Translations under genes and position numbers: made by a program
Assembly (NCBI GenBank): GCA_021787535.1
Contig: JAJYLR010000001.1
Span: 19,648-83,647 of the forward strand
Source of the DNA: a bacterium
GTDB lineage: Bacteria > Patescibacteriota > CPR2 > UBA1875 > JAJYID01
Direction of reading: 5' to 3'
DNA length: 64,000 bases
In this document: piece by piece, positions 29,310-43,749 of the stretch
Layout: every line of letters begins with the position of its first letter
Position numbering within the stretch: position 1 is the first letter of the stretch
Notes under the pieces: model-generated
Told to the model about the DNA's origin: nothing
Seen by the model: the letters and a program-made list of their open reading frames with translations, nothing else
Databases searched by the model: none

Positions 29310-29374
29310 GATTATTACTCTATTGACAGCAACTACCTGTCTGATATCATAGTAGTTAAGGTATTTTTCTTAGA

Positions 29375-29901: not shown

Positions 29902-30942
29902 ATGGCTTTGGGACTTAATATTCTAAAAGAAAATACTGATTACTTCGGACTTGATATTGGAACAAATTCTATAAAGGCGGTCCAGCTCAAAAAAGCTTTT
30001 GGAAAATATGAGCTTATCTCTTTTGGAAGCGCTCCAGTGCCTGAGGGTGTTTCACAAAGCGATAGTGAGATTGATCAAAGGAAGATTGCCGAAGTTATAA
30101 AAAAGCTTATTCATTCTATGCATCTTGTTACTAAAAACGTTATAGTTTCTTTGCCTGGAAGCACTGTTTTTACTACAGTCATTAATATACCTAAAATGCC
30201 AATGGCCGAGCTGAAGAAAGCTGTTAAATACCAGGCTGAACAGAGCATACCCTTAAAGATTTCCGAGGTAAAAATTGACTGGCAGATCATAGGAGAGGTG
30301 CCTTCCAAAAATGAACTGATGGTTATGATCATAGCCGCACCGATATCTAAAACGAAAAAAATTGTTGATACAGTAGAAGCAGCCGGACTGGAACTTTGCG
30401 CTGTTGAAATTAATGCCATTGCTTCGGCAAGGTCCTTGCAAACCGGTGAAGCTCTTTATTTAATAGTGGATATCGGTACCTTTGTTACTGAAATTACAAT
30501 AGTCAAAGGCGGTGTAACGGCTCTGACTCGCACTATCTCGGTTGGAGGACAGGTGATTACAAGGGCTATAGCTCAAGGTTTAGGGCTTGAAGAAAGCCAA
30601 GCCGAACAGTTTAAAAGGAAGTTTGGCATTGAGAAAGATAAAATGGAAGGCCAGATCTTTAAAGCTGCTAAATCAGTTTTAAATAACCTACATGAAGAAA
30701 TTGACAGGTCTATCAAGTATTATTCTAATCAGGCAGGAGAAAATCTGAATCTCATTAAGCTTACTGGAGGAGGTTCTAGAATGCTCGGTATTCAAAATTT
30801 TCTTGCTGAAAACCTAGGTATGAATGTGATTTACGGCAATCCCTGGGCCCAGGTTGTACATAAGCCAGATATTAATAACCAGCTAGCGAGTAATGCCTTA
30901 GACTTTGCTGTGTCTGTTGGGCTAGCAATGAGGGGCATGTGA
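29902..30942 (+). CDS. pilM: Type IV pilus assembly protein PilM (actin-like ATPase fold)
   Basis: FGLDIGTNSIKAVQLKK N-terminus, overall PilM length, gene order pilM-N-O. Confidence 0.85.
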   Translation: MALGLNILKENTDYFGLDIGTNSIKAVQLKKAFGKYELISFGSAPVPEGVSQSDSEIDQRKIAEVIKKLIHSMHLVTKNVIVSLPGSTVFTTVINIPKMPMAELKKAVKYQAEQSIPLKISEVKIDWQIIGEVPSKNELMVMIIAAPISKTKKIVDTVEAAGLELCAVEINAIASARSLQTGEALYLIVDIGTFVTEITIVKGGVTALTRTISVGGQVITRAIAQGLGLEESQAEQFKRKFGIEKDKMEGQIFKAAKSVLNNLHEEIDRSIKYYSNQAGENLNLIKLTGGGSRMLGIQNFLAENLGMNVIYGNPWAQVVHKPDINNQLASNALDFAVSVGLAMRGM

Positions 30943-30943
30943 A

Positions 30944-31519
30944 ATGGCAAAGATAAATTTAGCGCCGGATATCAGGCTTGAAAAATTAAGGATTAAAAAA
31001 CTTAACTTTTATATTACTCTCGGCGCACTGATTATTTTTGGTGTTTTGGTGTTATTTATTTTAATTTTACAAGGTTATAGGTGGTCCCAAAGTTATAGTT
31101 TGGATCAGACCAAGAAAAAAATTGCAAGTACTGAAGATGAATTAAAAAACTATAAGGATATCGAAGACATGGTAGTTAATATTGAGCAAGGTACGAGTGC
31201 AATCAATAACATAGATAAAACAACGCCTAAATGGTCTCGCTTTATGCCGGTTTTAGAGCAAGTTACGCCTAATGACATTAGTTTTACGGAGCTCAGCCAG
31301 AGCGGCAACCAATTTAAAGCTAAAGCAGAGGGCCGTTATGTCTATTCTATCGCTCGGCTTATGAAATCACTTGCAAATTATGAGTATAAGGACAATCAGG
31401 ATGATCAGACAGGTACAAAGTTATTTCAGAATGTCAGTGTTGACGGTTATTCTATTACTGATAATGGCTTAGTGGATTTTGATATAACATTTGAAATGAA
31501 AGATGGTGTGTTATGGTAG
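30944..31519 (+). CDS. pilN: Type IV pilus assembly protein PilN
   Basis: Short cytoplasmic N-terminus, single TM, coiled-coil periplasmic region. Position after pilM. Confidence 0.75.
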   Translation: MAKINLAPDIRLEKLRIKKLNFYITLGALIIFGVLVLFILILQGYRWSQSYSLDQTKKKIASTEDELKNYKDIEDMVVNIEQGTSAINNIDKTTPKWSRFMPVLEQVTPNDISFTELSQSGNQFKAKAEGRYVYSIARLMKSLANYEYKDNQDDQTGTKLFQNVSVDGYSITDNGLVDFDITFEMKDGVLW

Positions 31520-32172
31520 AGGGAAAGGTAAGCAAAAAATTTGAAAAATATTATTGGATGTCAGGAGTGATTGTTGTAACAATAATAGTGGTGGTTTTGG
31601 CTGTCACCTTTGTGATAATCCCTTCCTTTAACAGTCTTGGTCAAGTGGGCGATGATCTGAAGGATCAAAAATCAAATTTAAGCGTTGACGGACAGAAGCT
31701 TGAAAAATTAAAAAGTTTTAAAGTCAAAGAAGATGACCTGAGAAAACAATCAGAGATAGTTTATCGCGCTATTCCGTCAAAAAAAGAGGTGGGAGATAGT
31801 TTTATTGAGCTTGACGGTTTGATTCATGAGGCAGGAGGAAGCAACAAAAAGGTTGCTAGTTCGGATAGCACAGATAGTGCTCAAAATACCGGTTCTTCAG
31901 GTCCCGCTAATGCCCCGAATACATCTTCAAGCAATAGTCAAGGCCAAACCATGACATTGCCAGCAGGAGTCAGTGCGCTAGACTACACTACGGATGTGGA
32001 CTTCCCAAGTTATCAGAACTTTAAAACTATGCTTGAAAACTCTGAGAAAGCATTAAGATTTGTCCATTTGGATGATTTCAAAATTACTACAAAAGATGGG
32101 GCATTTAAAGTCAAATTATCATATACTGCTTTTTACAGAAGTGAAGGTTCTAGCAGTACAGGAGGACAGTAA
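31513..32172 (+). CDS. pilO: Type IV pilus assembly protein PilO
   Basis: Single TM plus coiled-coil. Position after pilN. Confidence 0.65.
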   Translation: MVEGKVSKKFEKYYWMSGVIVVTIIVVVLAVTFVIIPSFNSLGQVGDDLKDQKSNLSVDGQKLEKLKSFKVKEDDLRKQSEIVYRAIPSKKEVGDSFIELDGLIHEAGGSNKKVASSDSTDSAQNTGSSGPANAPNTSSSNSQGQTMTLPAGVSALDYTTDVDFPSYQNFKTMLENSEKALRFVHLDDFKITTKDGAFKVKLSYTAFYRSEGSSSTGGQ

Positions 32173-32175
32173 ATA

Positions 32176-32415
32176 ATGAAAAAATCAGATATTATAGTAA
32201 TATCATTTTGCGGACTCATAATAGCTGTTTCTATATTCTTTATTACGAAAGGATTAATGCCGAGTAAATCCAATAAACCGTTTAAGGTACAGTCAACTAT
32301 TAATTTTACCGGCAACATTGACCAAGGCACAATCGATAAGATACAAAAGAGAAAGGATTATGGTTCGCCTCCTATGGATAATATAGGCAGAGACAATCCT
32401 TTTGGGGGACTTTAA
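32176..32415 (+). CDS. Small membrane protein in the pilus operon (possibly PilP-like)
   Basis: N-terminal TM, 79 aa. Context only. Confidence 0.35.
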   Translation: MKKSDIIVISFCGLIIAVSIFFITKGLMPSKSNKPFKVQSTINFTGNIDQGTIDKIQKRKDYGSPPMDNIGRDNPFGGL

Positions 32416-32538
32416 AAAACATAATTTTGAATAATAGAATGAAAATAAAGAATGAAGGATCTAAAACTTGAATCTTTATTCCGAATTCTAGATTCCTATT
32501 CTATTATTCAATGATGCGGCTATTCAAAATTTAAAATC

Positions 32539-34323
32539 ATGGCAGTTGGTAATGAGAAAAAGTTAGAAGATTTATTAGTCAAGCTGGGGTTAGTCACACA
32601 AAAACAGCTTGACCTTGTTAGGGTTGAGAGCGCTGAAACAGGGAAACCGGTTCTTGAGATTTTAAAAGAGATGCCGGAGATTTCTAAAGAAAGTTTAACA
32701 AAGGCCATGGCAGTTGCTATGGAACTGCCTTATGTCGATTTGTCTCAGAAAAAATTAGACAAAGGTATTTTAAATGTTATCAGCAGGGACATCGCTCTTA
32801 AGTATAAGATTGTTCCATTTGGCAAAGTAGGGGATTTTTTAAATGTTGCTATGGCAGACCCAAACAATATCGTAGCCATAGAATACATTGAGAAAAAAAC
32901 AGGAATGAAACTCAAGCCATACTTTGCTTCGGACGAAAGTATAAGTAAAGCCATTGGGCAATATGATGATTATTCAGTCGAGGTACAGAATGTTTTAGGT
33001 ACCTTGGAAAAAACTCCTTCTCTAGACTTGAAGGAGGATAAAGAGCATGAGAAGGATAAAGAGGGAAATGCGGCTGTTATTACGCAAGATGCTCCAATTA
33101 CTAGAGCTTTAAACACTATCTTAGAGTATGCCGCTAAATCCAGGGCATCAGATATTCATATTGAGCCAAGAGAAAAGGCAATCAAAGTTAGATATAGGAT
33201 CGATGGCATTCTATACAACACTATGACACTGCCTAAACATATCCATCCCGCCCTAGTTTCTCGAATAAAAATTTTGTCAAATCTGAAAATTGATGAGCAT
33301 CGCGTACCTCAGGACGGCCGTTTTCAGCTCAATCACGACAACCGTGAGATAGATTTGCGTATTTCCGTTACCCCCATCGTTTATGGTGAGAAAGTAGTGA
33401 TTCGTCTGCTTGACAAATCAACTGGTATCATAACGCTCGAGAACCTTGGTATTAAAGGCAGGGCCTATAATATTATTGAAGAAGGGACGAAAAAACCTCA
33501 CGGTATGGTACTTGCTACAGGGCCTACGGGCTCGGGAAAATCGACATCGCTTTATGCAATACTATCAAAAATCAATAAACCGAGTGTCAATATTATTACC
33601 GTTGAAGATCCGGTTGAGTATAATATCGAAGGAATTAATCAGATTCAAGTCAATAATGCTGTGGGACTTACCTTTTCTTCGGGGCTTCGTTCTATTTTAC
33701 GCCAGGATCCGGATGTCATTATGGTTGGAGAAATTCGCGACAAGGAAACAGCTGAACTTGCGGTACAGTCTGCATTAACCGGACATACTGTGTTATCAAC
33801 TCTTCACACAAACTCGGCGGCAGGGGCGCTGCCACGCCTGATAGAAATGGATATCGAGCCATTTTTGATTGCTTCCACCGTTAATACTGTTATTGCCCAA
33901 CGTTTAGTTCGCACGATTTGTGAAAACTGTAAAGAAGAGTATAAAGCTAGTGTGGCTCTAACAAAGGCGATTAAAAAATCACTCGTTAACATCTTGCCCT
34001 CAAAGAAAGATCCGATTTCAAAAACCAAGGATCTTGGATTTGATAAATTGCCGAATATGGAAGATGAAATTTTTACTTTATATAAAGGCAAAGGATGCGA
34101 TCAATGCAAAAATACCGGTTATTGGGGGCGCGTAGGTGTTTACGAGATTTTCAATGTCAATGAAAAAATCGAGGATCTCATTACAAAGGAAGCTACTTCA
34201 AGTGATATTCAAGACCAGGCCATAGAGGATGGGATGATTACCATGCGCCAAGACGGCTTTTTAAAAGCTTTGGCGGGAATTACGACTTTGGAAGAGGTAG
34301 TAAGAACAACAACAGAAGACTAA
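32539..34323 (+). CDS. pilB: Type IV pilus assembly (extension) ATPase PilB/GspE
   Basis: N-terminal GSPII_E_N domain. Walker A LATGPTGSGKSTSLYAIL. Tetracysteine CDQC...C. Asp/His boxes. Confidence 0.9.
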   Translation: MAVGNEKKLEDLLVKLGLVTQKQLDLVRVESAETGKPVLEILKEMPEISKESLTKAMAVAMELPYVDLSQKKLDKGILNVISRDIALKYKIVPFGKVGDFLNVAMADPNNIVAIEYIEKKTGMKLKPYFASDESISKAIGQYDDYSVEVQNVLGTLEKTPSLDLKEDKEHEKDKEGNAAVITQDAPITRALNTILEYAAKSRASDIHIEPREKAIKVRYRIDGILYNTMTLPKHIHPALVSRIKILSNLKIDEHRVPQDGRFQLNHDNREIDLRISVTPIVYGEKVVIRLLDKSTGIITLENLGIKGRAYNIIEEGTKKPHGMVLATGPTGSGKSTSLYAILSKINKPSVNIITVEDPVEYNIEGINQIQVNNAVGLTFSSGLRSILRQDPDVIMVGEIRDKETAELAVQSALTGHTVLSTLHTNSAAGALPRLIEMDIEPFLIASTVNTVIAQRLVRTICENCKEEYKASVALTKAIKKSLVNILPSKKDPISKTKDLGFDKLPNMEDEIFTLYKGKGCDQCKNTGYWGRVGVYEIFNVNEKIEDLITKEATSSDIQDQAIEDGMITMRQDGFLKALAGITTLEEVVRTTTED

Positions 34324-34352
34324 AAATATTAATTTTTAATTATCAAATTCCA

Positions 34353-34742
34353 ATGATCAATCAAATCTCAAGTACCAATAAGGAAGAAACAAAATATGAT
34401 TTAGTTGAGAGGACTGCAGTATTTGGTGAATCTATTCTTGACTTTGTTGGGGGTGTCGAAAGAAATTCTATCAATAACCCATTAATAAGCCAGGTTGTTA
34501 GGTCTGGAACAAGTGTGGGGGCAAATTATTGTGAGGCAAATGAGGCGAATTCCAAAAAGGATTTTGTTCATAAGGTTAGCATCGCAAAAAAAGAAGCAAA
34601 AGAAACTATACACTGGCTCCGCATGATTATAAAAGTAAACTCTGCTCTCAGAGAAAGAGCTGAAATTTTGCAAAAGGAATCTCACGAGCTGGTTTTGATA
34701 TTTTCTGCTATAATGAGAAAAAGTACGGGTAGGGAAGTTTAA
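34353..34742 (+). CDS. Four-helix-bundle protein (23S rRNA intervening-sequence protein family, TIGR02436-like)
   Basis: SGTSVGANYCEANEANSKKDFVHKVSIAKKEAKETIHWL matches the family core motif. Confidence 0.7.
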   Translation: MINQISSTNKEETKYDLVERTAVFGESILDFVGGVERNSINNPLISQVVRSGTSVGANYCEANEANSKKDFVHKVSIAKKEAKETIHWLRMIIKVNSALRERAEILQKESHELVLIFSAIMRKSTGREV

Positions 34743-34860
34743 AATTTATTATTTAGCATTTGATTGAACATTGAGTTTTGAACATTGGAATTTTAATTAT
34801 AAGTCTTTGAATTTTCAACTGATGGTATTAAAATAAGAGTTATAAAGGAGGGCTTTACTA

Positions 34861-35934
34861 ATGCCTGAAGCAGCAAAACTAAAAATTGAAAACTTTCTGG
34901 AAGAGGTCATTAAAACTGATGCAAGCGATCTTCATCTAACGGTTGGGGTGCCGCCTATGCTTAGGATAGATGGCGCTTTGAAACCAATTGACGGCACCAA
35001 AGGGTTAACCGATAAAGATGTAAAAGATTTGACTTACTCTATTTTGGATGATGTTCAGAAAGATATTCTTGAACGTGACAAAGAAGTAGATTTTTCTTTT
35101 ACTTATGGGGATTTGGCAAGATTTAGAGCAAATGCTTACCATCAAAAAGGTAATATTGGTCTGGCACTTCGTTTAATTCCCGTAGCGATTCGCAGTTTGA
35201 CGCAACTTGGCATACCTAAGATAGTAGAAAGGTTCACTGAGTTTCCGCGCGGTTTAGTGCTTGTGACTGGTCCGACTGGTTCAGGTAAATCTACTACCCT
35301 AGCAGCTATGATCGATAAAATAAACACAGAACGGGCTTGCCATATTATTACGGTTGAAGATCCGATAGAGTATACTCACTCCCACAAGAAATCTTTAGTG
35401 GAACAAAGAGAAGTTCACTATGACACCCGTTCCTTTGCCGCTGCTCTCCGCAGCGTCCTACGAGAAGATCCTGATGTAGTTTTGATTGGAGAAATGAGAG
35501 ATCTGGAAACCATTGCTGCGGCAATCACCATTGCTGAAACCGGCCACCTGGTTTTAGCAACATTGCACACAAATAGTGCCGCACAATCTGTAGACAGAAT
35601 TATCGATGTTTTTCCTCCGCATCAGCAGCAACAGATTAGAGTGCAGCTTTCCAATATTTTACAAGGAATTGTTTCCCAACGGCTCATTCCGGCTATTGGA
35701 GGAGGCCGCTTAGCTGCAGCGGAGATTTTGGTTGCTACTCCGGCGGTCCGTAATATTATAAGAGAGCAAAAAACTCATCAGTTAGAAGCAGTGATCCAAA
35801 CAGGAGCATCAGAGGGTATGCAGTCTATGGATAGGACTTTAGCTAACCTTATTAAAGTCGGCCGTATTACCATGGATGAGGCGAAAGGTTATGCTATTGA
35901 TATTAAGGAACTTGAAAGACTTCTGCGTAAATAA
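34861..35934 (+). CDS. pilT: Twitching motility (retraction) ATPase PilT
   Basis: Walker A LVLVTGPTGSGKSTTLAAMI. PilT-specific AIRNLIRE-like motif AVRNIIRE. Confidence 0.9.
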   Translation: MPEAAKLKIENFLEEVIKTDASDLHLTVGVPPMLRIDGALKPIDGTKGLTDKDVKDLTYSILDDVQKDILERDKEVDFSFTYGDLARFRANAYHQKGNIGLALRLIPVAIRSLTQLGIPKIVERFTEFPRGLVLVTGPTGSGKSTTLAAMIDKINTERACHIITVEDPIEYTHSHKKSLVEQREVHYDTRSFAAALRSVLREDPDVVLIGEMRDLETIAAAITIAETGHLVLATLHTNSAAQSVDRIIDVFPPHQQQQIRVQLSNILQGIVSQRLIPAIGGGRLAAAEILVATPAVRNIIREQKTHQLEAVIQTGASEGMQSMDRTLANLIKVGRITMDEAKGYAIDIKELERLLRK

Positions 35935-36014
35935 AAACACGAAATAATAAAATAACAAAAATCGAGTCACGTGTTATTTAATTCATCAAGTTTATCGGTT
36001 ACTAAGTTGAAATC

Positions 36015-37226
36015 ATGAAAGAATTCAGTTACAAAGCAAGGAACAAAGACGGAACGGCCACGCAAGGTATTGTGGAAGCAGAGACAGAGCAAGCCGCATC
36101 GAATCTTTTGATTTCCAAAAACATTTTTCCTGTTGCCATTAAAGAAAGTTCTTCGTCTGCTTTCGGAAGTTTCTCTTTTCTGAAAAAGATCTCAAGAAAG
36201 GACAAGGTTTTCTTTGTGCGGCAACTTGCTACTATGACCGGTGCCGGATTGCCTATAGCGCAAGCACTGGCCACGCTTTTGGAACAGACTTCCAAACAAA
36301 ACGTAAAGAAAATGATAGAACAAATGATGCGCGATATAGAGGCGGGAGGCACTCTGTCCGCTGCTTTCGGGGCTTTTCCGGAAACATTCAATAAAACAGA
36401 TGTGAACATGATTGCTTCCGGAGAAGCGAGCGGAAAAATTGACGAAGTTTTGCTGCATATGGCTGATCAAACAGAAAAAAGCTATAGAACAATCAAAAGA
36501 ATCAGGACTGTTTTTATTTACCCTGCTTTTCTATCAGTTGTTGTGATAGGTATAGTGGCAGGTCTTCTTACCTTTGTTTTGCCTCAAATGGAAGATTTAT
36601 ATAAGGGTTTTGGTGCAAAACTCCCTCTACCTACGCGAATACTCATAGGATTTAGCCACTTTATCACCAAATATTTTATTTTAGTCATCTTAGTGCTCAT
36701 TGCTGTTTTTATCCTTCTCAGAATATACACGCGCACTAATGAAACAGGAAAATATATCTGGCATCGCCTAAAGCTCAATATTCCGCTTATAGGCAGCTTT
36801 ATTAAGCTGTCTTATCTCTCCATCTTTACTCGTACGCTTGCCAGTCTGGTATCTTCTGGTGTTCCGATTCTTGACTCTTTGCAGATAGTGGCGGAAGCTA
36901 TGCCGAACATTATTTATCGAGACAGTTTAGAGACGGTGAAAGATAAGGTGAAGCAGGGTAAAGCATTATCCACGGCCCTTAAGGATGATGAACTTTTTCC
37001 TATCCTTGTTTCGCAGATGATAGCGGTTGGTGAACAAACGGGTGAACTTGATAATATGCTGGCCAATATGGCCGAATATTATGATGATGAGCTTGATACC
37101 ATGACTAAGAACATGCAATCCTTGTTAGAACCGATCATGATTGTGGTGATGGGCGGTATTGTCGGCACTATTATCATCTGTATCCTGCTCCCAGTTTACA
37201 GCATCCAGAATTTTGTAAAACATTAA
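36015..37226 (+). CDS. pilC: Type IV pilus platform protein PilC/GspF
   Basis: Two GspF repeats, three TM segments, ~400 aa. Confidence 0.85.
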   Translation: MKEFSYKARNKDGTATQGIVEAETEQAASNLLISKNIFPVAIKESSSSAFGSFSFLKKISRKDKVFFVRQLATMTGAGLPIAQALATLLEQTSKQNVKKMIEQMMRDIEAGGTLSAAFGAFPETFNKTDVNMIASGEASGKIDEVLLHMADQTEKSYRTIKRIRTVFIYPAFLSVVVIGIVAGLLTFVLPQMEDLYKGFGAKLPLPTRILIGFSHFITKYFILVILVLIAVFILLRIYTRTNETGKYIWHRLKLNIPLIGSFIKLSYLSIFTRTLASLVSSGVPILDSLQIVAEAMPNIIYRDSLETVKDKVKQGKALSTALKDDELFPILVSQMIAVGEQTGELDNMLANMAEYYDDELDTMTKNMQSLLEPIMIVVMGGIVGTIIICILLPVYSIQNFVKH

Positions 37227-37531: not shown

Positions 37532-37584
37532 AGAGTTGTATTTATAAAATACAAATTGCCTTTTAAGGCGGGGAGGAGGTGAAA

Positions 37585-37989
37585 ATGAGAAAGCTAAAAA
37601 GTAAACAAGGTTTTACGCTTATCGAAGTAGTTGTCGTGATGGCTATTATTGCAGTTTTGGCTGTTTTGGTGATTGGAGCCATTACAGTAGCCAGAAATAC
37701 CCAGAAGGAAACAGTTCACAGGTCAAATGCCAGAACAGTACAAACTCAGCTTGAGGCATGGTATGCAAAGAATAGAAGTTACCCAGCAACATCAGGGACA
37801 GTTGACTTGAATGCCGCTATGACTTCTATGGGACAGTCAACATTTTCAAATGCCAGTGAATGTACAGGTACAGGAGGAAAACCTGGCGGAGGCACTGTTG
37901 CCTATTCAACTACGGGTTATACAATCACGCCTTATGATTCAGGATGTACTAATCCGCTCGGTTCATCAGACGTGTTGAGCAACCAATAA
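37585..37989 (+). CDS. pilA: Type IV major pilin (prepilin with class III signal: KQG, then FTLIEVVVVMAIIAVLA)
   Basis: Canonical N-terminal G-F-T-L-I-E methylation/cleavage motif. ATG at 37585 with a GGAGGAGG RBS. C-terminal Cys pair. Confidence 0.85.
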   Translation: MRKLKSKQGFTLIEVVVVMAIIAVLAVLVIGAITVARNTQKETVHRSNARTVQTQLEAWYAKNRSYPATSGTVDLNAAMTSMGQSTFSNASECTGTGGKPGGGTVAYSTTGYTITPYDSGCTNPLGSSDVLSNQ

Positions 37990-38175
37990 GATATATTTAT
38001 CTCACATAACTAGCCATGGCGAGAAAATTCCTCATCATGGCTGTTATGGTAGCTAATTTAGAAATAAATGACCATGATAAGGGATATGTTTCAGCACCGC
38101 CCAGCCCCTCAAAATTAATCAGACGCAGCTCTACATAGTAGAAAATAGCCAAAAAATACTTATACCTTAAAGTTT

Positions 38176-39033
38176 TTGTTATATAATATTTTTATGTATT
38201 TATATGTCATTACTCTCGTTATCTTTATCTTATTAGGCCTTATTACCGGCAGTTTTTTGAATGTTCTCATATACAGATTAGAAAACAAGAAAAGAAAAAC
38301 TCTTTTCGGACGGTCTTTTTGTCCTTCGTGCGGGCAACAAATTGCCTGGTATGACAATATCCCTATTATTTCCTGGCTGGTTTTGGGTGGAAAGTGCAGG
38401 AAATGCGGAAAGCAAATCTCATCTCAGTATCCGCTAGTAGAACTAGCGACAGGTTTTTTGTTTGCAGCGATCGGCCTGAAATTTTTGTTTCTGGGCGCTT
38501 TACACATAGGTATTGATTCTGGGCAAGCCAGAATGACGGCACCGGACATTTTAAATTTATTATTTTGGCTGTTTTTTACGGCGGGGTTGATCGTAATCTT
38601 TGTATATGATTTCAAGCACCAAATCATTCCTAATGAGATAATTTATACTCTTTTGGCAGCCGGGCTAGTATTTGTTGGGGTTGACACGCTATTTTTTGGC
38701 GGCTATCAGTATTTAATTGATCATTTGCTCTCTGGTCTTCTCGCCGGAGGATTTTTCTATGCTCTGGCCGCTGTTTCAAAGGGTAAATGGATGGGAGGAG
38801 GCGACATTAAGCTAGTTGCCTTTATGGGGTTGGTATTAGGTTGGCAGGGTCTGCTTGCAGCTCTTTACTTTTCCTTTGTTTTGGGGGCGGTTTTTGGACT
38901 GAGCGCGCTGGTTGCACACAAAAAAGCTCTCAGTTCGCGCATACCTTTCGGGCCTTTTCTGGTAGCCGGTACGTTCGTCGGCCTTTTTTTCGGCGAGCAA
39001 ATGGTTAGCTTTTATGTTAGAATGTTTTTGTAA
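38176..39033 (+). CDS. pilD: Prepilin peptidase PilD (A24 family) carrying an in-frame 23-nt repeat-core insertion
   Basis: GSFLNVLIYRL, tetracysteine CPSCGQQ...CRKCGK, catalytic Asp regions. The insert encodes [10 protein letters not shown]. Confidence 0.85.
   Translation: MLYNIFMYLYVITLVIFILLGLITGSFLNVLIYRLENKKRKTLFGRSFCPSCGQQIAWYDNIPIISWLVLGGKCRKCGKQISSQYPLVELATGFLFAAIGLKFLFLGALHIGIDSGQARMTAPDILNLLFWLFFTAGLIVIFVYDFKHQIIPNEIIYTLLAAGLVFVGVDTLFFGGYQYLIDHLLSGLLAGGFFYALAAVSKGKWMGGGDIKLVAFMGLVLGWQGLLAALYFSFVLGAVFGLSALVAHKKALSSRIPFGPFLVAGTFVGLFFGEQMVSFYVRMFL
38515..38537. repeat. Solo 23-nt family-1 core hairpin gattctgg-gcaag-ccagaatgac inserted in-frame in pilD
   Basis: Identical 23/23 to intergenic 26612-26634. 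Encodes D-S-G-Q-A-R-M-T. Confidence 0.8.
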
Positions 39034-39060: not shown

Positions 39061-39774
39061 ATGATACGGAGGGTTAGAAACAAAAAAGGATTTACACTGG
39101 TTGAACTTTTAGTTGTGATGGGTATCATAGCAGTCCTCCTTACGCTTAGCTTTAGCGGTTACTTTGCGTACAGGAGACAAATGTTTGTTGAAAATCTGGC
39201 AAGCCAGCTTCAGACGGATATTAGAGATACCTTTGTTAAATCAATCTCAGTAAACGATAATGCTCCCTGTCCCGGCAGTCAGGCCGCAAAAGTCAGGAGC
39301 TTGAAAATACCGGTACAGAATCCCTTTACAGATTATTACATCACTGACTATTGCGATTCTAGCGGTAACATTCAGGTAGGACAAGCGGGGCTAACTCCAG
39401 TATCACCTTCTTCTACTATCACACCATCGAACAATCTTAGTTTTAACGAGCCGGCTAAGCTAAGCTTAACCGTGAACGGCATAACTCGATCTAACGGCTT
39501 TTTATGTCTGGTTTATTCCTCGCCATACGGTGAGTTTAGCGGTTATTATTATCCTACTCCAACAAATGGTTCCGGGGATCAATGTGATAGCGACGTACAA
39601 ACTTATTGGAAAAAACAATCTGACGGGGTCTTCATTGCAAGCCCATCACCGCCGCCGCCGGCATTTTCTGTAAGACAGACAGAGGAAGCGGAATTTATGT
39701 CATTGAATGATGCAAATATTAATAGTTTGGTTGATATATATCCTTCAGGGCAAGCCGCAGAGAAAAACCAATAA
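39061..39774 (+). CDS. Minor (pseudo)pilin with prepilin-type N-terminal cleavage/methylation domain
   Basis: KKGFTLVELLVVMGIIAVLL N-terminus. Confidence 0.75.
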   Translation: MIRRVRNKKGFTLVELLVVMGIIAVLLTLSFSGYFAYRRQMFVENLASQLQTDIRDTFVKSISVNDNAPCPGSQAAKVRSLKIPVQNPFTDYYITDYCDSSGNIQVGQAGLTPVSPSSTITPSNNLSFNEPAKLSLTVNGITRSNGFLCLVYSSPYGEFSGYYYPTPTNGSGDQCDSDVQTYWKKQSDGVFIASPSPPPPAFSVRQTEEAEFMSLNDANINSLVDIYPSGQAAEKNQ

Positions 39775-39782
39775 AGAAAGTA

Positions 39783-40337
39783 GTGATGAAAAAATTACTA
39801 TATCAAAAAAAAGGACAAAGTTTGGTAGAAGTAGTGATTGCCATGGCTGTTATAGCTGTTGTGGTAGTTGCTGTAATGATGCCCGTTCTTGCTTCCAGAG
39901 GACTTTTATATAACTCAGAGGATGTAACGAAGGCAACCTCTCTGGCGGAACAAGGTTTGGAGATAATAAAAAACAATAGAGATATCGGCTGCCAGTTTGA
40001 TGCCATAAATCCCGGCAACAGCGGCGGTACCTATGATATTTACGGCGATTTGCATAATCAGCGTTTAGATAATTCTTCTGCCGAACAATTAGTTCAAGAT
40101 ACCGGTCTCTCACAGCAGATTTATAGCTCTAATAGCGAGTACACTGGTTTTACTAGAAAAATTACTTTAACCAGTCTAGACAATGTTTCCTTTAATCCCG
40201 GTACTTTTGGCGGCATACCTTCCGATACATTCGATACAAAGGATCAATATTATTATGTGGAAGTGCAAGTGTCGAAAAATGGTTCTTCTTTATCTACAGT
40301 TTCGACTATTATGCTCAAAAAATGGAAAGACTACTAA
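39783..40337 (+). CDS. Minor pilin with prepilin-type N-terminal domain
   Basis: KKGQSLVEVVIAMAVIAVVV N-terminus. Confidence 0.7.
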   Translation: MMKKLLYQKKGQSLVEVVIAMAVIAVVVVAVMMPVLASRGLLYNSEDVTKATSLAEQGLEIIKNNRDIGCQFDAINPGNSGGTYDIYGDLHNQRLDNSSAEQLVQDTGLSQQIYSSNSEYTGFTRKITLTSLDNVSFNPGTFGGIPSDTFDTKDQYYYVEVQVSKNGSSLSTVSTIMLKKWKDY

Positions 40338-40897
40338 TGAAAAGAAGTTTGGAAAACAAAAAAGGATTTACATTAATTGAACTGATTGTGGCAATGGGGC
40401 TTTTTGCTATTATTTTAACCGCTTTCACTAGCTTTTTCCTGAATGCGTATAAGTTAGAAAGCACATATGTAGGAAAGGCAGATTTAAACCAAGAGGCACG
40501 GCTAGTCAGCGAGGTTTTTGCCAGATATGCCCGTGAGGCCAAAACAGTTACTCTGAGCGGTGATTGCACGAGCGGACTTTCTTGCCAGCCAAGCTTTGTA
40601 CTGCCTAGAGGCGATAGTGATACTGCTGTCATTAATGTTCAATTTGACGGCAGCGCAACAGCCGGCACTCCTTCTCACCGCACCTTAAACTTAGGGGTTA
40701 ATAGTTCACAAGCATACAACTTTCTTTCAAATAACATTGCCTTAGGCAGTTTGCGTATCCATCAACAAACAGATGTTTATCCTAAAATTCTAGAATATAA
40801 CTTTACTTTACAAAAAATAGTGAATGGGGTGCCATCGACTGCAAGCGGAGACCAAATCTACTTTAGCGGCGTTATTAATATGAGGAATGAACAATGA
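40322..40897 (+). CDS. Minor pilin (PilW-like) with prepilin-type N-terminal domain
   Basis: KKGFTLIELIVAMGLFAIIL N-terminus. Confidence 0.7.
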   Translation: MERLLMKRSLENKKGFTLIELIVAMGLFAIILTAFTSFFLNAYKLESTYVGKADLNQEARLVSEVFARYAREAKTVTLSGDCTSGLSCQPSFVLPRGDSDTAVINVQFDGSATAGTPSHRTLNLGVNSSQAYNFLSNNIALGSLRIHQQTDVYPKILEYNFTLQKIVNGVPSTASGDQIYFSGVINMRNEQ

Positions 40898-42348
40898 AGT
40901 ATTTGCGTATGCAAAACAATAGAGGCAATGTTTTAATTTTTACAATCTTAGTTGTAGTTATACTTTTTGTGATTATGAGTTCGCTATCGGTGCTGATGAT
41001 CTCGGAAATTCGCCAATCCGGCCAGATCGAAGACTCTGCGAACGCCTATTTGGCAGCTGAGGCCGGATCCGAGCGGGCCCTAAACTATGCGAATCATAGA
41101 ACTCCAATCTATGAAACTAATCAGCGTTTAGGGGCAGCTGCTAACTCACCGACTTATTCATTTGAAGTAAAAGAAGCTACCGCAGGGGGTTCTTTAAGCG
41201 ATGGTACTCGATGTGACACAAATACTGATCCTAATCTATATTATTGTTTTTATAGTGAAGGATATAGCGGTTCAGGTAAAATAGTTCGCAAACTCAGCGG
41301 TTACACAAGAATTAATAGTATCAACCAAACAACCGCTGTAGACTTTAGTACCTATCCTACACAGCCGCCATGGTCGCTCTTTCCTTCGTCTCCTTCTCAA
41401 ACAGTGAGCTTAATGGATATTACACCACCCGATCCCAGGCATGACACTTTAGTTTTATCCGGCCAAATAGAAGGGCTTAATGTTCCGTCTGCAGATCATT
41501 ATTTCGGGCTTCTAGATAGCGGATCAGGATTGGGAAACAGAAAGGGTATCGGCATGCATGTTTATAATTCAGGCGGCCAAAATATGATAAAGCTGATAGG
41601 TACAACCATTGATACTGATGTCGCGCCACCTGCATATACCCCCTACGATAATGGAGAAATTGCTTCAGGTCCTGGTACGGGCAATCCGATATCGATCCCA
41701 ATCAATCCCGGAGAAAAAATAAGCTTTGTTTTAACGTACAGAAGAGCAGCTTCAGATCCATGGGCGAATACTGCCACGCTGCAGGTGAATGATATTACAG
41801 ATCCTAATCATACTCATAACTATCCTTGTTTGGGTATTACGACATCTGTCTTTTCCGATAGAATTTTTAGCTATGCTCCGTTTTATGCTTACTTTTTAAG
41901 TCCCGGCAGCTATAAGCCGCGAGGGGGAACTGCAGGCGGTGCTCCGTATCTTCAACTGCAAGACAGTGGTCAGACTATTACCTTAGATAACTTTATTTTA
42001 AGTACCAGCGGATCAACGAGCGATACCTTAGCAACCGGTACATGGCTAAAACCCGGACAGTTTATAAAATCGCAAAGTGGCAACTACCTCCTTACTTATA
42101 GAACAAATGGCAACTTAGTGCTTACTAATGCGGGCGGTTCCGTGATTTGGCAAACAGGTACACTCAGTACGGCTGGGTATGCCAGCATGCAGATTTCAGA
42201 TGGCAACTTTGTGCTCTATACTCCCAGCTGGTGGCCCTACTGGGCATCAAATACAACCGGTCATCCAAACGCCTATTTAAAGGTAACTGATGACGGTCAT
42301 CTTAGAATCTATGATGCTAACAATAATCAAATCTGGTCCAGGCCGTAA
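40894..42348 (+). CDS. PilX-like minor pilin fused to a C-terminal bulb-type (B-lectin, mannose-binding) lectin domain. Candidate pilus tip adhesin.
   Basis: PilX_N-like N-terminus (GNVLIFTILVVVILFVIMSSLSV...AYLAAEAG). The C-terminus carries three B-lectin-like subdomain motifs: QSGNYLLTYRTNGNLVL, QISDGNFVLY, VTDDGHLRIYD. Confidence 0.7.
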   Translation: MKYLRMQNNRGNVLIFTILVVVILFVIMSSLSVLMISEIRQSGQIEDSANAYLAAEAGSERALNYANHRTPIYETNQRLGAAANSPTYSFEVKEATAGGSLSDGTRCDTNTDPNLYYCFYSEGYSGSGKIVRKLSGYTRINSINQTTAVDFSTYPTQPPWSLFPSSPSQTVSLMDITPPDPRHDTLVLSGQIEGLNVPSADHYFGLLDSGSGLGNRKGIGMHVYNSGGQNMIKLIGTTIDTDVAPPAYTPYDNGEIASGPGTGNPISIPINPGEKISFVLTYRRAASDPWANTATLQVNDITDPNHTHNYPCLGITTSVFSDRIFSYAPFYAYFLSPGSYKPRGGTAGGAPYLQLQDSGQTITLDNFILSTSGSTSDTLATGTWLKPGQFIKSQSGNYLLTYRTNGNLVLTNAGGSVIWQTGTLSTAGYASMQISDGNFVLYTPSWWPYWASNTTGHPNAYLKVTDDGHLRIYDANNNQIWSRP

Positions 42349-43335: not shown

Positions 43336-43749
43336 GTCATTCCGACCGCCACTATGCTAATGAAAAGTGGAGGAATCCCTTACTCGTAGTATAATCTACT
43401 TATGGCCAAAAATTATATTTTCCATGTTCATATATTAGCTAGTGAGAGTGGTACTCTATACATTGGTGTCACCAATGACCTAGTTAGAAGAATATATCAA
43501 CACAGGAGCGATTTAATAGAAGGATTTAGCAAAAAGTATCAATGCCATAAATTAGTTTATTATGAAGAAACATCAGATGTTGAAAGCGCAATTAAAAGAG
43601 AAAAACAAATTAAAAATTGGAGCAGAAAGAAAAAAGAAGGTTTGATCAAAACCAAAAACCCAACCTGGAGAGATTTATCAGGTGATTTATAAAATATTAA
43701 TACAAAGGGATTCCTCCGCTCTACTTTTACGGAAGTTGGTCGGAATGAC
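43336..43749. mobile_element. Family-3 palindromic element carrying a GIY-YIG nuclease gene in its central loop. Outer arms are gtcattccgacc / ggtcggaatgac; inner arms are ggaggaatccc / gggattcctcc.
   Basis: Both arm pairs are exact reverse complements. An empty counterpart lies at 50893-50980. Confidence 0.75.
43402..43692 (+). CDS. Small stand-alone GIY-YIG nuclease family protein (UPF0213/YhbQ-like)
   Basis: YIFHVHILASESGTLYIGVTNDLVRRIYQHR (GIY...YIG) with conserved Arg and Glu downstream. Confidence 0.8.
   Translation: MAKNYIFHVHILASESGTLYIGVTNDLVRRIYQHRSDLIEGFSKKYQCHKLVYYEETSDVESAIKREKQIKNWSRKKKEGLIKTKNPTWRDLSGDL

What the first reader, a model, noticed from the sequence alone, without database searches (positions are those of the whole stretch)
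40894..42348. Type IV pilus minor pilin fused to a bulb-type mannose-binding (B-lectin) domain: candidate pilus-tip adhesin
The last gene of the minor-pilin set has a PilX-like N-terminal pilin domain. Its C-terminal ~120 aa carries the three-fold QxDxNxVxY-like repeats of B-lectins (QSGNYLLTYRTNGNLVL; QISDGNFVLY; VTDDGHLRIYD). A glycan-binding pilus tip would be a plausible host or partner-cell attachment device. If this is an episymbiotic lineage, that is directly relevant to its lifestyle. The fusion itself is unusual.
Basis: partly seen in the sequence, partly recalled or inferred. Interest (0 to 1): 0.65.

Follow-up and report, generated by a model that had tools for sequence, protein, structure and literature searches.

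The report
Pilus-tip protein carrying a bulb-lectin module
The last gene of a type IV pilus operon in an ultrasmall (Patescibacteria/CPR) bacterium encodes a cap-type minor pilin with a genuine bulb-type lectin domain grafted onto its end, a likely sugar-binding grappling hook for attaching to other cells; this is a new variation on the already known idea of modular, lectin-carrying pilus-tip proteins.

Summary
Window 40894-42348 (+) is a 484-aa ORF, the last gene of a secretin-less type IV pilus cluster (PilM, PilB, PilT, PilC, major pilin, PilD, three minor pilins) in a Patescibacteria genome. Residues 1-372 are a GspK/PilX-type minor pilin: conserved Gly-1, no Glu5, a long N-terminal helix and a beta-rich body. 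Residues ~376-484 are a real beta-prism II bulb-type lectin (NCBIfam 3e-20; pyocin L1/L2 ~1e-17; model pLDDT 93.5, TM 0.81-0.88 to solved lectins). Only one of the three QxDxNxVxY sites is near-intact (site II, Q-x-x-DGNFVLY). Sites I and III are degenerate, so mannose specificity is not established. The fusion is rare but not unique: 3 of 80 family representatives carry this lectin, all in the same operon slot. Other members carry FG-GAP, InlB-repeat, PKD/Fib_succ or Ig-like modules after the same junction. The 60%-identical syntenic orthologue has a different module behind an in-frame TAG. Modular lectin-bearing tip pilins are already described (S. sanguinis PilC; Saccharibacteria TM7x PilX1/PilX2). 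Best reading: a tip-displayed glycan adhesin for host or partner cells. Binding and tip location are inferred, not shown. It is a new variant of a known kind, of moderate interest.

The parts
40894..42348 (+). Whole gene: 484-aa modular PilX/GspK-type minor pilin with a C-terminal bulb-type lectin. The stop codon is included.
   Evidence: ORF list. The identical protein P0001 occurs in public assemblies on a 635,771-bp contig.
40894..40926 (+). Putative class III leader peptide, MKYLRMQNNRG, ending in the family-invariant Gly11 (Gly-1). The mature N-terminus would be NVLIF..., with Phe rather than Glu at +5.
   Evidence: G11 is invariant in family alignment A4. The N-termini of the family members show G followed by hydrophobic residues with W/F at +5 and no E5. 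Cleavage by PilD is inferred, not shown.
40918..41094 (+). Long N-terminal alpha-helix (residues 9-67), the pilin alpha1. It contains the Pfam PilX_N match (residues 10-59, 40921-41070).
   Evidence: The AF2 model has helix H9-67 at pLDDT 76-88. PilX_N scores E=1.1e-3 for the full protein and 3.6e-4 for the body alone.
41095..42009 (+). Beta-rich pilin body (residues 68-372). It belongs to a small Patescibacteria-type family, carries conserved Cys107/Cys118/Cys312, and its distal half weakly resembles ConA-like jelly-roll sandwiches. It ends at the conserved junction ...NFILSTSG.
   Evidence: The exhaustive HMMER scan found 80 representatives at E<=1e-3 and 21 at E<=1e-10, typically 340-400 aa. 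Model pLDDT is mostly 70-90. Weak Foldseek hits include the GH43 C-terminal domain, PL-14 lyase, BoNT HCR and thrombospondin C-terminus. No PDB sequence relative was found.
42010..42042 (+). Short Ser/Thr-rich linker (residues 373-383, GSTSDTLATGT) between the pilin body and the lectin.
   Evidence: pLDDT is below 50 for residues 373-383 in the full-length model. Orthologues diverge exactly here: P0121 ends, and P0002 switches to a Pro-rich linker.
42019..42345 (+). Bulb-type (GNA/MMBL, beta-prism II) lectin domain, residues ~376-484, with the conserved Trp triad (W419, W450, W481).
   Evidence: Searches give the sequence evidence. The domain model has pLDDT 93.5 and pTM 0.84. Foldseek TM is 0.81-0.88 and rmsd 1.2-1.5 A to 1xd5/1xd6/4tkc, with TMq 0.72 to pyocin L1 and 0.85 to the UmbA4 bulb lectin. 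The Trp columns are nearly invariant in A3.
42100..42126 (+). Site I, RTNGNLVLT (residues 403-411). Degenerate: Q->R, D->N, Y->T. It aligns with the pyocin L1 C1 site.
   Evidence: Alignments. The motif count shows canonical QxDxNxVxY in 32 of 49 homologues at this site.
42190..42219 (+). Site II, Q-I-S-DGNFVLY (residues 433-442). D, N, V and Y are retained, and Q is displaced by one residue (Q-x-x-D). This is the only plausibly functional sugar site and it aligns with the pyocin L1 C2 site.
   Evidence: D, N and V are invariant in the 49-sequence alignment. The same Q-x-x-D spacing occurs in the pilin-fused lectin P0131. The pyocin L1 alignment is, and the roles of C1/C2 are described in PMC3916391.
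42286..42312 (+). Site III, TDDGHLRIY (residues 465-473). Degenerate: Q->T, N->H, V->R.
   Evidence: Site III is also degenerate in P0131 (GDDGKARIY) and P0127 (MDTGTVGTY).
39061..40897 (+). Three upstream minor pilins (39061-39774, 39783-40337, 40322-40897), each with G|F/Q-x-L-x-E prepilin motifs. They are weakly GspH/ComGD-, PilV/GspI- and GspJ/ComGF-like, so the order is H-I-J followed by the target as 'K'.
   Evidence: Pfam N_methyl scores E=1e-8, 2.5e-6 and 2.8e-8. The NCBIfam weak hits are, and the N-terminal sequences.
37579..39033 (+). Major pilin candidate (37579-37989, 136 aa, G|FTLIE) and prepilin peptidase PilD (38176-39033).
   Evidence: N_methyl, ComGC and GspG hits. Peptidase_A24 with A24_N_bact at E=1e-32.
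29902..37226 (+). T4P machinery: PilM (29902-30942), two small ORFs of unknown family in the PilN/O position (30944-32172), extension ATPase PilB (32539-34323), retraction ATPase PilT-like (34861-35934) and platform protein PilC (36015-37226). No secretin is present.
   Evidence: Pfam hits: PilM_2 7e-51, T2SSE 7e-133 and 2.5e-49, T2SSF 6e-62.

Best explanation
The gene encodes the cap ('K'-type, PilX/GspK-like) minor pilin of a monoderm-style type IV pilus in a Patescibacteria bacterium. Its N-terminal hydrophobic helix would insert it into the priming complex formed with the three upstream minor pilins. Because filaments grow from the base, that complex ends up at the distal tip. A monomeric beta-prism II (bulb-type) lectin is tethered by a ~10-residue Ser/Thr linker to the end of the pilin body. 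The lectin presents one plausibly competent sugar pocket (site II) outward. Binding of a cell-surface glycan on a host or partner bacterium, followed by PilT-driven retraction, would pull the ultrasmall cell onto its target. The sugar would most plausibly be a mannose- or rhamnose-type hexose or 6-deoxyhexose in a polymer, by analogy with pyocin L1. Shown here: the domain architecture, the fold, the state of the three motifs, the operon position, the lineage, and the fact that the C-terminus is a module slot. Inferred: PilD processing, tip location, carbohydrate binding, ligand identity and the role in host attachment.
For: K-type identity rests on several points. It is the only one of the five pilin-like proteins in the operon without Glu5 (G|NVLIF against G|FTLIE, G|FTLVE, G|QSLVE and G|FTLIE). 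Gly-1 is invariant and +5 is aromatic across the family. It is the largest pilin and the last gene after H/I/J-like pilins. PilX_N hits are sub-threshold in 4 of 17 members, and the relative P0149 passes Pfam's cut-off. There is also a weak GspK hit. The complete T4P machinery includes a PilT-like ATPase. Evidence for a module slot: the three closest relatives share the junction ...F(I/V)(L/F)xTSG and then either stop (P0121), continue into the lectin (this gene), or continue into a Pro-linker plus an Ig-like sandwich (P0002 locus). More distant members append FG-GAP repeats, an InlB B-repeat plus lectin, or PKD plus Fib_succ_major, all adhesin-type modules. The lectin-bearing members P0131 and P0127 occupy the same operon slot, and all three keep site II while sites I and III are degenerate, which is consistent with selection on one pocket. 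Precedents: in pyocin L1 the homologous C-terminal-domain sites (C1, C2) bind D-rhamnose in P. aeruginosa CPA and target the protein to cells (PMC3916391). S. sanguinis PilC is a tip-located modular pilin whose lectin module binds glycans (PMC9934059). In Saccharibacteria TM7x, PilX1 and PilX2 lack PilD-type signals and carry lectin-like modules, deleting pilX2 lowers host binding, and rhamnose nearly abolishes binding (PMC11623550). The lineage is Patescibacteria.
Against: No canonical QxDxNxVxY site survives. Sites I and III have lost three of five key residues, and site II has a one-residue displacement of Gln, so sugar binding may be weak, altered or lost. Pfam B_lectin and PilX_N both fall below their gathering thresholds. 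Tip location is inferred only from operon order and the missing Glu5. The closest orthologue (60% identity) lacks the lectin, so it is dispensable for pilus assembly. The pilus cluster is adjacent to comEC, so the pilus could primarily serve DNA uptake.
Confidence: 0.6

Rival explanations
1. The lectin fold no longer acts as a lectin. The beta-prism II module has lost carbohydrate binding and serves as a protein-binding or purely structural cap. Precedents are the sugar-blind N-domain sites of lectin-like bacteriocins and the non-lectin B-lectin-fold proteins neoculin/curculin.
For: Two of the three sites are degenerate and the third has Q-x-x-D spacing. Neoculin/curculin appear among the structural and sequence matches. 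In pyocin L1, site N2 is occluded and N1 binds only weakly (PMC3916391).
Against: Site II keeps the invariant D, N, V and Y, and is the one site preserved in all three pilin-fused lectins. The same Q-x-x-D variant occurs in other bacterial homologues (P0057, P0071, P0131), which suggests a tolerated functional variant. A single functional site suffices in several B-lectins (general knowledge).
Confidence: 0.17
2. A general adhesion or competence pilus rather than a host-recognition device. The pilus mainly mediates DNA uptake or twitching on surfaces, and the lectin merely anchors the tip to environmental exopolysaccharide or biofilm matrix, with no partner specificity.
For: comEC lies immediately downstream in this and all syntenic loci. 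The lectin is absent from the closest orthologue. In TM7x one of the two pili is linked to twitching rather than host binding (PMC11623550).
Against: In TM7x the T4P-2 pilin mutants tested showed no competence defect (PMC11623550). The diversity of adhesin-type modules at this slot (lectin, FG-GAP, InlB repeat, Ig-like, Fib_succ) looks like diversification of target recognition. All cultivated Patescibacteria are episymbionts (PMC11623550 abstract).
Confidence: 0.15
3. Not a pilus subunit. The protein is a membrane-anchored (type II, single N-terminal TM helix) surface lectin or assembly primer that stays at the cell surface and is never incorporated into the filament.
For: There is no Pfam/TIGR N_methyl hit and no Glu5. 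[quoted passage not shown]
Against: Gly-1 is invariant and followed by the hydrophobic stretch, the start overlaps the upstream pilin ORF's stop (ATGA), and the position as the fourth gene of an H-I-J-K-like set is conserved. GspK-type cap pilins characteristically lack Glu5 (established knowledge, Korotkov & Hol 2008, cited from memory).
Confidence: 0.06
4. A lectin-like bacteriocin (LlpA/pyocin L-type toxin) delivered by the pilus.
For: The best NCBIfam hit is the putidacin L1 family (E=3e-20) and the best PDB sequence hits are pyocins L1/L2.
Against: Only one MMBL domain is present, whereas LlpAs are defined by a tandem pair. The score of 72.6 bits is far below the 275-bit family cut-off, and only profile positions 106-242 of 274 are matched. 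There is no C-terminal extension.
Confidence: 0.02

Closest known systems
Saccharibacteria (Nanosynbacter lyticus TM7x) PilX1 / PilX2 minor pilins (PMC11623550)
   Same: Both are from the same superphylum (Patescibacteria). Each is the largest minor pilin of a T4P locus and lacks a canonical PilD/Glu5 signal. Each has a pilin head followed by carbohydrate-binding-like C-terminal modules: a jelly-roll resembling L-type lectins in PilX1 and a beta-propeller in PilX2. They are proposed tip adhesins, with host binding sensitive to rhamnose and mannose. The body of the present protein also gives weak jelly-roll matches.
   Different: The extra module here is a sequence-recognisable bulb-type (beta-prism II) lectin, a fold not reported for those proteins. 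No genetics or imaging exist for this lineage.
Modular type IV pilins of Streptococcus sanguinis: PilC (ConA-like lectin module) and PilB (vWA module) (PMC9934059, PMC8179133)
   Same: The design principle is the same: an N-terminal pilin module, a short linker and a grafted ligand-binding module. They form a tip-located complex with other minor pilins in a monoderm, secretin-less T4P, and the lectin module binds glycans.
   Different: The lectin fold differs (ConA-like against beta-prism II). PilC has a canonical IPR012902 class III signal, whereas this protein has a PilX_N/GspK-type N-terminus without Glu5. It would therefore be missed by the IPR012902-based catalogue of 264 architectures. 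The pilin moiety is unrelated in sequence.
GspK / PilX 'K' subunit of the HIJK core minor-pilin complex (T2SS and T4aP)
   Same: It is the last gene of a four-gene minor-pilin set and the bulkiest subunit. It lacks Glu5 and matches the PilX_N-type N-terminus weakly. The expected role is to cap the priming complex at the filament tip.
   Different: GspK's extra domain is an alpha-domain inserted into the pilin beta-sheet. Here the extras are a beta-rich body plus a C-terminally appended lectin. No significant sequence or structure match to solved GspK or PilX was obtained. Diderm T4aP use the non-pilin PilY1 as the tip adhesin instead.
Lectin-like bacteriocins pyocin L1/L2 and putidacin L1 (LlpA); bulb-lectin modules of Streptomyces UmbA umbrella-toxin spokes
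   Same: These are the closest solved homologues of the lectin domain (E~1e-17; TMq 0.72 to pyocin L1 and 0.85 to the UmbA4 bulb lectin). They are bacterial B-lectin domains used to target a protein to another bacterium's surface polysaccharide, as with pyocin L1 C1/C2 and the D-rhamnose of CPA.
   Different: Those are secreted toxins or toxin-particle components: a tandem MMBL pair in LlpAs, and a trypsin-like domain plus lectins in UmbA. In the UmbA4-teichuronic acid structure the ligand sits on the beta-propeller, not on the bulb lectin (PMC13274773). Here a single MMBL domain is attached to a pilin, and only the C2-equivalent site is retained.
R64 PilV shufflon (tip adhesin with recombinase-switched C-termini), considered as an analogy
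   Same: Both involve a T4P tip pilin whose variable C-terminus sets target-cell specificity, with a tyrosine recombinase gene immediately downstream.
   Different: There are no alternative cassettes and no sfx-like inverted repeats. Only 12 bp separate the pilin and recombinase stops, and the recombinase scores as an ordinary XerC/XerD type. Variation here is between genomes, not by on-site inversion.

Membership tests
Bulb-type / monocot mannose-binding (GNA, B_lectin PF01453) lectin domain | Significant match to the family profile | tested here: met
   Pfam B_lectin gives E=1.4e-6 but 29.2 bits, below the 32.4 gathering score. The independent NCBIfam MMBL-based model gives E=3.2e-20. phmmer against PDB gives 2e-17 to pyocin L2 and 1e-9 to daffodil and snowdrop agglutinins. 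There are 119 homologues, most of them Pfam-annotated as PF01453.
Bulb-type / monocot mannose-binding (GNA, B_lectin PF01453) lectin domain | Three-fold beta-prism II fold with a conserved Trp core | tested here: met
   The AF2 domain model has pLDDT 93.5, and DSSP lists 10 strands of three or more residues. Foldseek TM is 0.81-0.88 and rmsd 1.2-1.5 A to 1xd5/1xd6/4tkc. W419, W450 and W481 lie in nearly invariant columns.
Bulb-type / monocot mannose-binding (GNA, B_lectin PF01453) lectin domain | Canonical QxDxNxVxY carbohydrate-binding motif(s) | tested here: inconclusive
   Site I is RxNxNxVxT and site III is TxDxHxRxY, both degenerate. Site II is Q-x-x-D-x-N-x-V-x-Y, with four of five residues in register and Gln shifted by one. 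The motif is not strictly canonical at any site, and functional competence cannot be decided from sequence.
Bulb-type / monocot mannose-binding (GNA, B_lectin PF01453) lectin domain | Demonstrated mannose (or other sugar) binding | not testable with these tools
   This requires a glycan array or ITC with the recombinant domain.
Type IV pilin / pseudopilin, K-type cap subunit (PilX_N PF14341; GspK-like) | Class III-like N-terminus: short basic leader ending in Gly, then a ~20-residue hydrophobic helix | tested here: met
   The N-terminus reads MKYLRMQNNRG|NVLIFTILVVVILFVIMSSLSVLMI. Gly11 is invariant in the family. The model helix spans residues 9-67.
Type IV pilin / pseudopilin, K-type cap subunit (PilX_N PF14341; GspK-like) | Match to the PilX_N / GspK profiles above curated thresholds | tested here: inconclusive
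   PilX_N gives E=1.1e-3 and 19.3 bits, below 25.5. Four of 17 family members hit it, all sub-threshold. The relative P0149 (E=1.8e-5 to the query) passes at 28.4 bits. NCBIfam GspK gives only E=0.1. No PDB pilin was matched.
Type IV pilin / pseudopilin, K-type cap subunit (PilX_N PF14341; GspK-like) | Absence of Glu5, unlike the other pilins of the system | tested here: met
   The target has Phe at +5. The major pilin and all three upstream minor pilins have Glu at +5. The family has W/F at +5.
Type IV pilin / pseudopilin, K-type cap subunit (PilX_N PF14341; GspK-like) | Genomic context: last gene of a minor-pilin operon next to the prepilin peptidase and T4P machinery | tested here: met
   establish this for the window. 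The same arrangement holds in the loci of P0002, P0131 and P0127.
Type IV pilin / pseudopilin, K-type cap subunit (PilX_N PF14341; GspK-like) | Processing by prepilin peptidase and incorporation at the filament tip | not testable with these tools
   This needs mass spectrometry of sheared pili, or cryo-ET or immunogold labelling.
Modular type IV pilins (sensu Raynaud et al. 2021, PMC8179133) | [quoted passage not shown] | tested here: met
   The pilin body (residues 1-372), a low-confidence S/T linker (373-383) and an independently folding lectin (376-484) are all present. Module-less (P0121) and other-module (P0002 locus, P0125, P0127, P0152, P0189) relatives share the junction.
Modular type IV pilins (sensu Raynaud et al. 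2021, PMC8179133) | IPR012902 / N_methyl signature at the N-terminus (the operational definition used in that catalogue) | tested here: not met
   There is no N_methyl (PF07963) or TIGR02532 hit for this protein, although the four other pilins in the operon have one. It fits the concept but not the operational search criterion.
Lectin-like bacteriocins (LlpA / pyocin L; NF033557) | Tandem pair of MMBL domains and a full-length match above the family cut-off | tested here: not met
   A single MMBL domain is present. It scores 72.6 bits against a 275-bit cut-off and aligns only to profile positions 106-242 of 274.

The most novel reading that the evidence does not exclude
The C-terminus of the PilX-type cap pilin in this Patescibacteria clade is an exchangeable host-range cassette. 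A conserved junction (...F-I/V-L/F-x-T-S-G) accepts alternative receptor-binding modules: bulb lectin, Ig-like sandwich, FG-GAP propeller, InlB-type repeat or Fib_succ domain. These are gained, swapped and inactivated between closely related genomes, for example by the in-frame TAG in front of the Ig-like module in the 60%-identical orthologue. The bulb lectin would specify a particular host cell-wall glycopolymer. This would make tip-pilin module typing a genome-readable predictor of host specificity for uncultured episymbionts, analogous to phage receptor-binding proteins or the diversified UmbA lectins of umbrella toxins.
Probability: 0.25. Interest if true: 0.7.

Novelty: new variant of a known kind. 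Interest (0 to 1): 0.42.

Why it matters
How ultrasmall episymbiotic bacteria (Patescibacteria/CPR) recognise and latch onto their hosts is largely unknown and has been studied in only a few cultivated Saccharibacteria. This protein gives a concrete, sequence-recognisable receptor-binding module, with solved homologues and a predictable binding pocket, on the pilus cap of an uncultured lineage. A small soluble domain (~110 aa) could be expressed and screened against bacterial cell-wall glycans to guess the host. The finding that relatives carry different modules at the same junction suggests that the cap pilin may be where host specificity evolves. It also shows that catalogues of modular pilins built on the N_methyl signature miss the PilX/GspK-type carriers.

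Tried and rejected
1. Shufflon-like switching of the pilin C-terminus by the adjacent tyrosine recombinase was rejected. There are no cassettes, only chance-level inverted repeats, a 12-bp gap between the two stops, and the recombinase is XerC/XerD-type.

2. A lectin-like bacteriocin was rejected: a single MMBL domain, far below the family cut-off.

3. Recent horizontal acquisition of the lectin is not supported. The lectin segment has GC 0.456 and GC3 0.444, against 0.430 and 0.349 for the body, which is within the range of neighbouring genes. The best lectin homologues are only 41-44% identical.

4. Three independent fusions against one: a neighbour-joining tree groups the three pilin-borne lectins, but bootstrap support is only 51% and 43%, so this is left as suggestive.

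5. The GTDB genome scan with the pilin body found nothing, because exact 8-mer patterns fail at 60% identity. It is uninformative about presence in the close MAGs.

6. An alignment-based locus search failed because there were no conserved 7-10-column stretches.

7. The word-indexed protein search with a body-only profile returned just 4 proteins, so the distribution rests on the exhaustive HMMER scan.

8. The profile search of PDB sequences with the pilin body found no relative.

10. Promoter and terminator scans were at chance level.

11. The supplementary catalogue of modular pilins, as held (32 kb of text), contains no bulb-lectin entry, but this is not conclusive.

12. The UmbA4-teichuronic acid structure was considered as direct precedent for the bulb lectin and set aside, because the ligand is bound by the beta-propeller.


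Full report
**1. What is at the coordinates**

Window 40894..42348 (+) is a 484-aa ORF with an ATG start. Its ATG overlaps the stop codon of the preceding ORF (40322..40897) as ATGA. That ORF in turn overlaps the one before it (39783..40337). This indicates that the three genes are co-transcribed. Promoter and terminator scans of the region gave nothing above chance.

**2. Genomic setting and organism**

Upstream on the same strand lies a complete type IV pilus (T4P) cluster without a secretin:
- PilM (29902-30942)
- two small ORFs of unknown family in the PilN/O position
- PilB (32539-34323)
- a PilT-like ATPase (34861-35934)
- PilC (36015-37226)
- a 136-aa major-pilin candidate with G|FTLIE (37579-37989)
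- prepilin peptidase (38176-39033)
- three minor pilins with N_methyl motifs (39061, 39783, 40322)

By their weak NCBIfam matches the three minor pilins look GspH/ComGD-like, PilV/GspI-like and GspJ/ComGF-like. This places the target in the 'K' position of an H-I-J-K set.

Downstream are a convergent XerC/XerD-type recombinase, a small GIY-YIG protein and ComEC, which is split into two ORFs.

RuvB from the window is 96-97% identical to unnamed 'bacterium' MAGs and 88% identical to a 'Patescibacteria group bacterium'. It is about 65-76% identical to many Saccharibacteria MAGs. The identical protein is recorded on a 635,771-bp contig. The organism is therefore a small-genome Patescibacteria (CPR) bacterium, probably related to Saccharimonadia, though the class is not resolved.

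**3. The C-terminal domain is a real bulb-type lectin**

- Pfam B_lectin scores E=1.4e-6, narrowly below the gathering score.
- The NCBIfam putidacin-L1 (tandem-MMBL) model matches residues 352-483 at E=3.2e-20, but only over one of its two domains and far below the family cut-off.
- phmmer against PDB sequences gives pyocin L2/L1 at 2e-17/1e-16, the M. smegmatis LysM-lectin at 2e-12 and plant agglutinins at about 1e-9.
- A 49-sequence alignment of extracted lectin domains gave an AlphaFold model with pLDDT 93.5 and pTM 0.84.
- That model superposes on monomeric Gastrodia lectins, the Marasmius lectin and the bulb-lectin domain of Streptomyces UmbA4 at TM 0.81-0.88 and rmsd 1.2-1.5 A. It superposes on pyocin L1 at TMq 0.72.

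**4. State of the sugar-binding motifs**

Compared with the family consensus QxDGNxVxY:
- Site I is RTNGNLVLT, with Q, D and Y lost.
- Site III is TDDGHLRIY, with Q, N and V lost.
- Site II is Q-I-S-DGNFVLY. It keeps the invariant D, N, V and Y but has one extra residue between Q and D.

In the 49 homologues the canonical motif is present at sites I, II and III in 32, 42 and 32 sequences respectively.

In pyocin L1, the two C-terminal-domain sites C1 and C2 bind D-rhamnose of the common polysaccharide antigen. The authors tested their role by mutating the motif Asp of each site to Ala (PMC3916391). In the HMMER alignment our degenerate site I aligns with C1 and our retained site II aligns with C2.

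At most one pocket therefore looks competent. 'Mannose-binding' is a family label, not a prediction of specificity.

**5. The N-terminal 372 residues are a PilX/GspK-type pilin**

- The N-terminus reads MKYLRMQNNRG|NVLIF...: a short basic leader, a Gly, then a long hydrophobic helix (model helix 9-67).
- This is the only pilin-like protein in the operon without Glu at +5.
- An exhaustive HMMER scan of 1.84 billion representatives found a small family: 80 at E<=1e-3 and 21 at E<=1e-10, typically 340-400 aa long.
- Gly-1 is invariant and +5 is W/F in the close members.
- Pfam PilX_N matches residues 10-59 at sub-threshold level here and in 4 of 17 members. The more distant relative P0149 passes the threshold.
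- The lack of Glu5, the bulk of the protein and the last-gene position are the hallmarks of the cap subunit (GspK/PilX) of the minor-pilin priming complex. This rests on established knowledge summarised in PMC9934059.
- No solved pilin was matched by sequence profile or by Foldseek.
- The distal half of the body gave only weak jelly-roll / ConA-like hits: the GH43 C-terminal domain, PL-14 lyase, BoNT HCR and the thrombospondin C-terminus. This recalls the 'beta-jelly-roll, L-type-lectin-like' domain reported for TM7x PilX1 (PMC11623550), but the evidence is low-confidence.

**6. The lectin is a grafted, exchangeable module**

The closest relative, P0002, is 60% identical over residues 1-376 and sits in the same syntenic slot: PilD, three minor pilins, P0002, convergent Xer recombinase, ComEC. 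It aligns up to ...VLATSGS. It then continues into an Ala/Pro-rich linker containing an in-frame TAG. The same frame then runs on for 122 codons encoding an Ig-like sandwich (Pfam TRAP_beta, E=9e-5). tblastn finds no lectin remnant there. That post-TAG module is homologous to the in-frame C-terminus of another family member, P0152 (31% identity, E=7e-7).

P0121 (47% identity) simply ends at ...FNTSGQ.

More distant members append other modules:
- P0125: four FG-GAP repeats
- P0127: an InlB B-repeat plus a bulb lectin
- P0131: a bulb lectin
- P0189: PKD, DUF5018 and Fib_succ_major

Of the 80 representatives only three carry the lectin: this protein, P0131 and P0127. P0131 and P0127 are also the last gene after PilD and three minor pilins, followed by a convergent gene. 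In P0127's locus that gene is the Xer-type recombinase, followed by ComEC.

The three pilin-borne lectins are each other's nearest neighbours and share the 'site II only' pattern. Ours and P0131 also share the Q-x-x-D spacing and the W(S/T)RP terminus. Bootstrap support for the group is only 43-51%, so a single ancestral capture is suggested rather than demonstrated. The base composition of the lectin segment is unremarkable.

**7. Relatives of the lectin domain elsewhere**

Outside the pilin family, the 119 lectin homologues are fused to a range of other domains:
- trypsin-like domains (the UmbA architecture of Streptomyces umbrella toxins)
- M23, GH25, NlpC/P60 and CHAP hydrolases
- YkuD, PG-binding and SpoIID domains
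- metallo- and serine proteases

At least 21 carry a peptidoglycan-hydrolase or PG-binding domain. This fits bacterial bulb lectins being used as cell-envelope-targeting modules, but it is only circumstantial.

In the UmbA4-teichuronic acid structure the ligand is bound by the beta-propeller, not by the bulb lectin (PMC13274773). That structure is therefore not direct precedent.

**8. Mechanism proposed**

The four minor pilins would form the priming complex, with this protein as the cap. Polymerisation of the major pilin by PilB would push the complex outward, so that the lectin, on a flexible ~10-residue tether, is the most distal element. Binding of a surface glycan on a host or partner cell through site II, followed by PilT-driven retraction, would bring the cells together. 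The sugar would most plausibly be of the rhamnose or mannose type, by homology with pyocin L1 C2.

Support by analogy:
- S. sanguinis PilC is a lectin-module pilin in a tip complex that binds defined glycans (PMC9934059).
- In TM7x, PilX2 is needed for efficient host binding, and that binding is almost abolished by rhamnose and halved by mannose or glucose (PMC11623550).

None of the functional steps is shown for this protein.

**9. Rivals**

- The lectin fold may have lost sugar binding, given the degenerate motifs and the neoculin-like and LlpA N-domain precedents.
- The pilus may mainly serve DNA uptake or surface motility, with non-specific anchoring. The comEC adjacency and the absence of the lectin from the nearest orthologue point this way.
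- The protein may remain membrane-anchored rather than entering the filament.
- A bacteriocin role is excluded by the architecture.
- A shufflon-like switch driven by the adjacent recombinase was tested and rejected.

**10. Novelty and verdict**

Modular pilins carrying lectin modules are an established concept, and lectin-like PilX pilins have been described in Saccharibacteria. What is new here:
- The module type is a beta-prism II bulb lectin. No paper in the searchable library links one with a pilin.
- It is carried on a PilX_N/GspK-type pilin that lacks the N_methyl signature used to catalogue modular pilins.
- There is comparative evidence for a defined junction at which different adhesin-type modules are exchanged, or inactivated, between related genomes.

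This is a new variant of a known kind. It is moderately interesting, chiefly because it offers a tractable handle on host recognition in an uncultured episymbiont lineage.

Noticed in passing
L001 7562-7932 (same sequence in L002-L004; the orthologous locus of P0002, GCA_027336405.1 DAHWFU010000002.1): The 60%-identical orthologue has an in-frame TAG inside a Pro-rich linker (cct cct TAG ccg cca). After it the frame stays open for 122 more codons encoding an Ig-like (TRAP_beta-like) sandwich that is homologous to the in-frame C-terminus of P0152. The TAG is present in four assemblies. It could be a recent pseudogenisation of the module, or read-through or phase variation.
   Followed up: partly
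L001 7935-8908 and 1631-2230: Two IS200/IS605-type Y1 transposase genes and a Fic-domain gene are inserted in the orthologue's pilin operon. One IS copy lies directly after the tip-pilin module. It is flanked by 63-nt direct repeats (98% identical) and by perfect palindromes (TTGCCAAGGTTCCGAACCTTGGCA). The window's locus has none of these.
   Followed up: partly
L089 2514-3332 and 5634-7004 (locus of P0127, GCA_021823605.1 JAKANV010000001.1): In this related locus another pilin (272 aa, N_methyl) has a weak Laminin_G_3 (ConA-like) hit. The minor pilin just upstream of the lectin-bearing cap pilin is unusually large (456 aa) and contains a 126-nt tandem duplication (68-nt repeats, 88% identical). 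Several modular pilins may therefore coexist in one operon.
   Followed up: no
window 34353-34742: A 129-aa '23S rRNA-intervening sequence protein' (PF05635, E=8e-16) is encoded between pilB and the pilT-like gene, an odd passenger inside the pilus machinery operon.
   Followed up: no
window 43762-46063: ComEC is split into two overlapping ORFs: Competence/DUF4131 (43762-45195) and the metallo-beta-lactamase domain (45188-46063). The same split is seen in the orthologous loci (L001 10469-12803; L005), so it is conserved rather than a frameshift artefact.
   Followed up: partly
window 27837-29884 and 30944-32172: Four ORFs flank pilM: two of 490 and 169 aa upstream, and two of 191 and 219 aa downstream in the pilN/pilO position. 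None has a Pfam hit at E<=1e-5. They may be lineage-specific T4P alignment or assembly components.
   Followed up: no
window 42104-42122 / 42197-42215: A 19-nt direct repeat (89% identical) within the lectin-coding region corresponds to the NGNLVL / DGNFVL strands of sites I and II. The internal three-fold repeat of the beta-prism is therefore still visible at the DNA level.
   Followed up: yes
window 43402-43692: A small stand-alone GIY-YIG nuclease-domain protein (96 aa) lies between the Xer recombinase and comEC. It is present in this lineage (L005, L006) but not at that position in the P0002 or P0127 loci.
   Followed up: no
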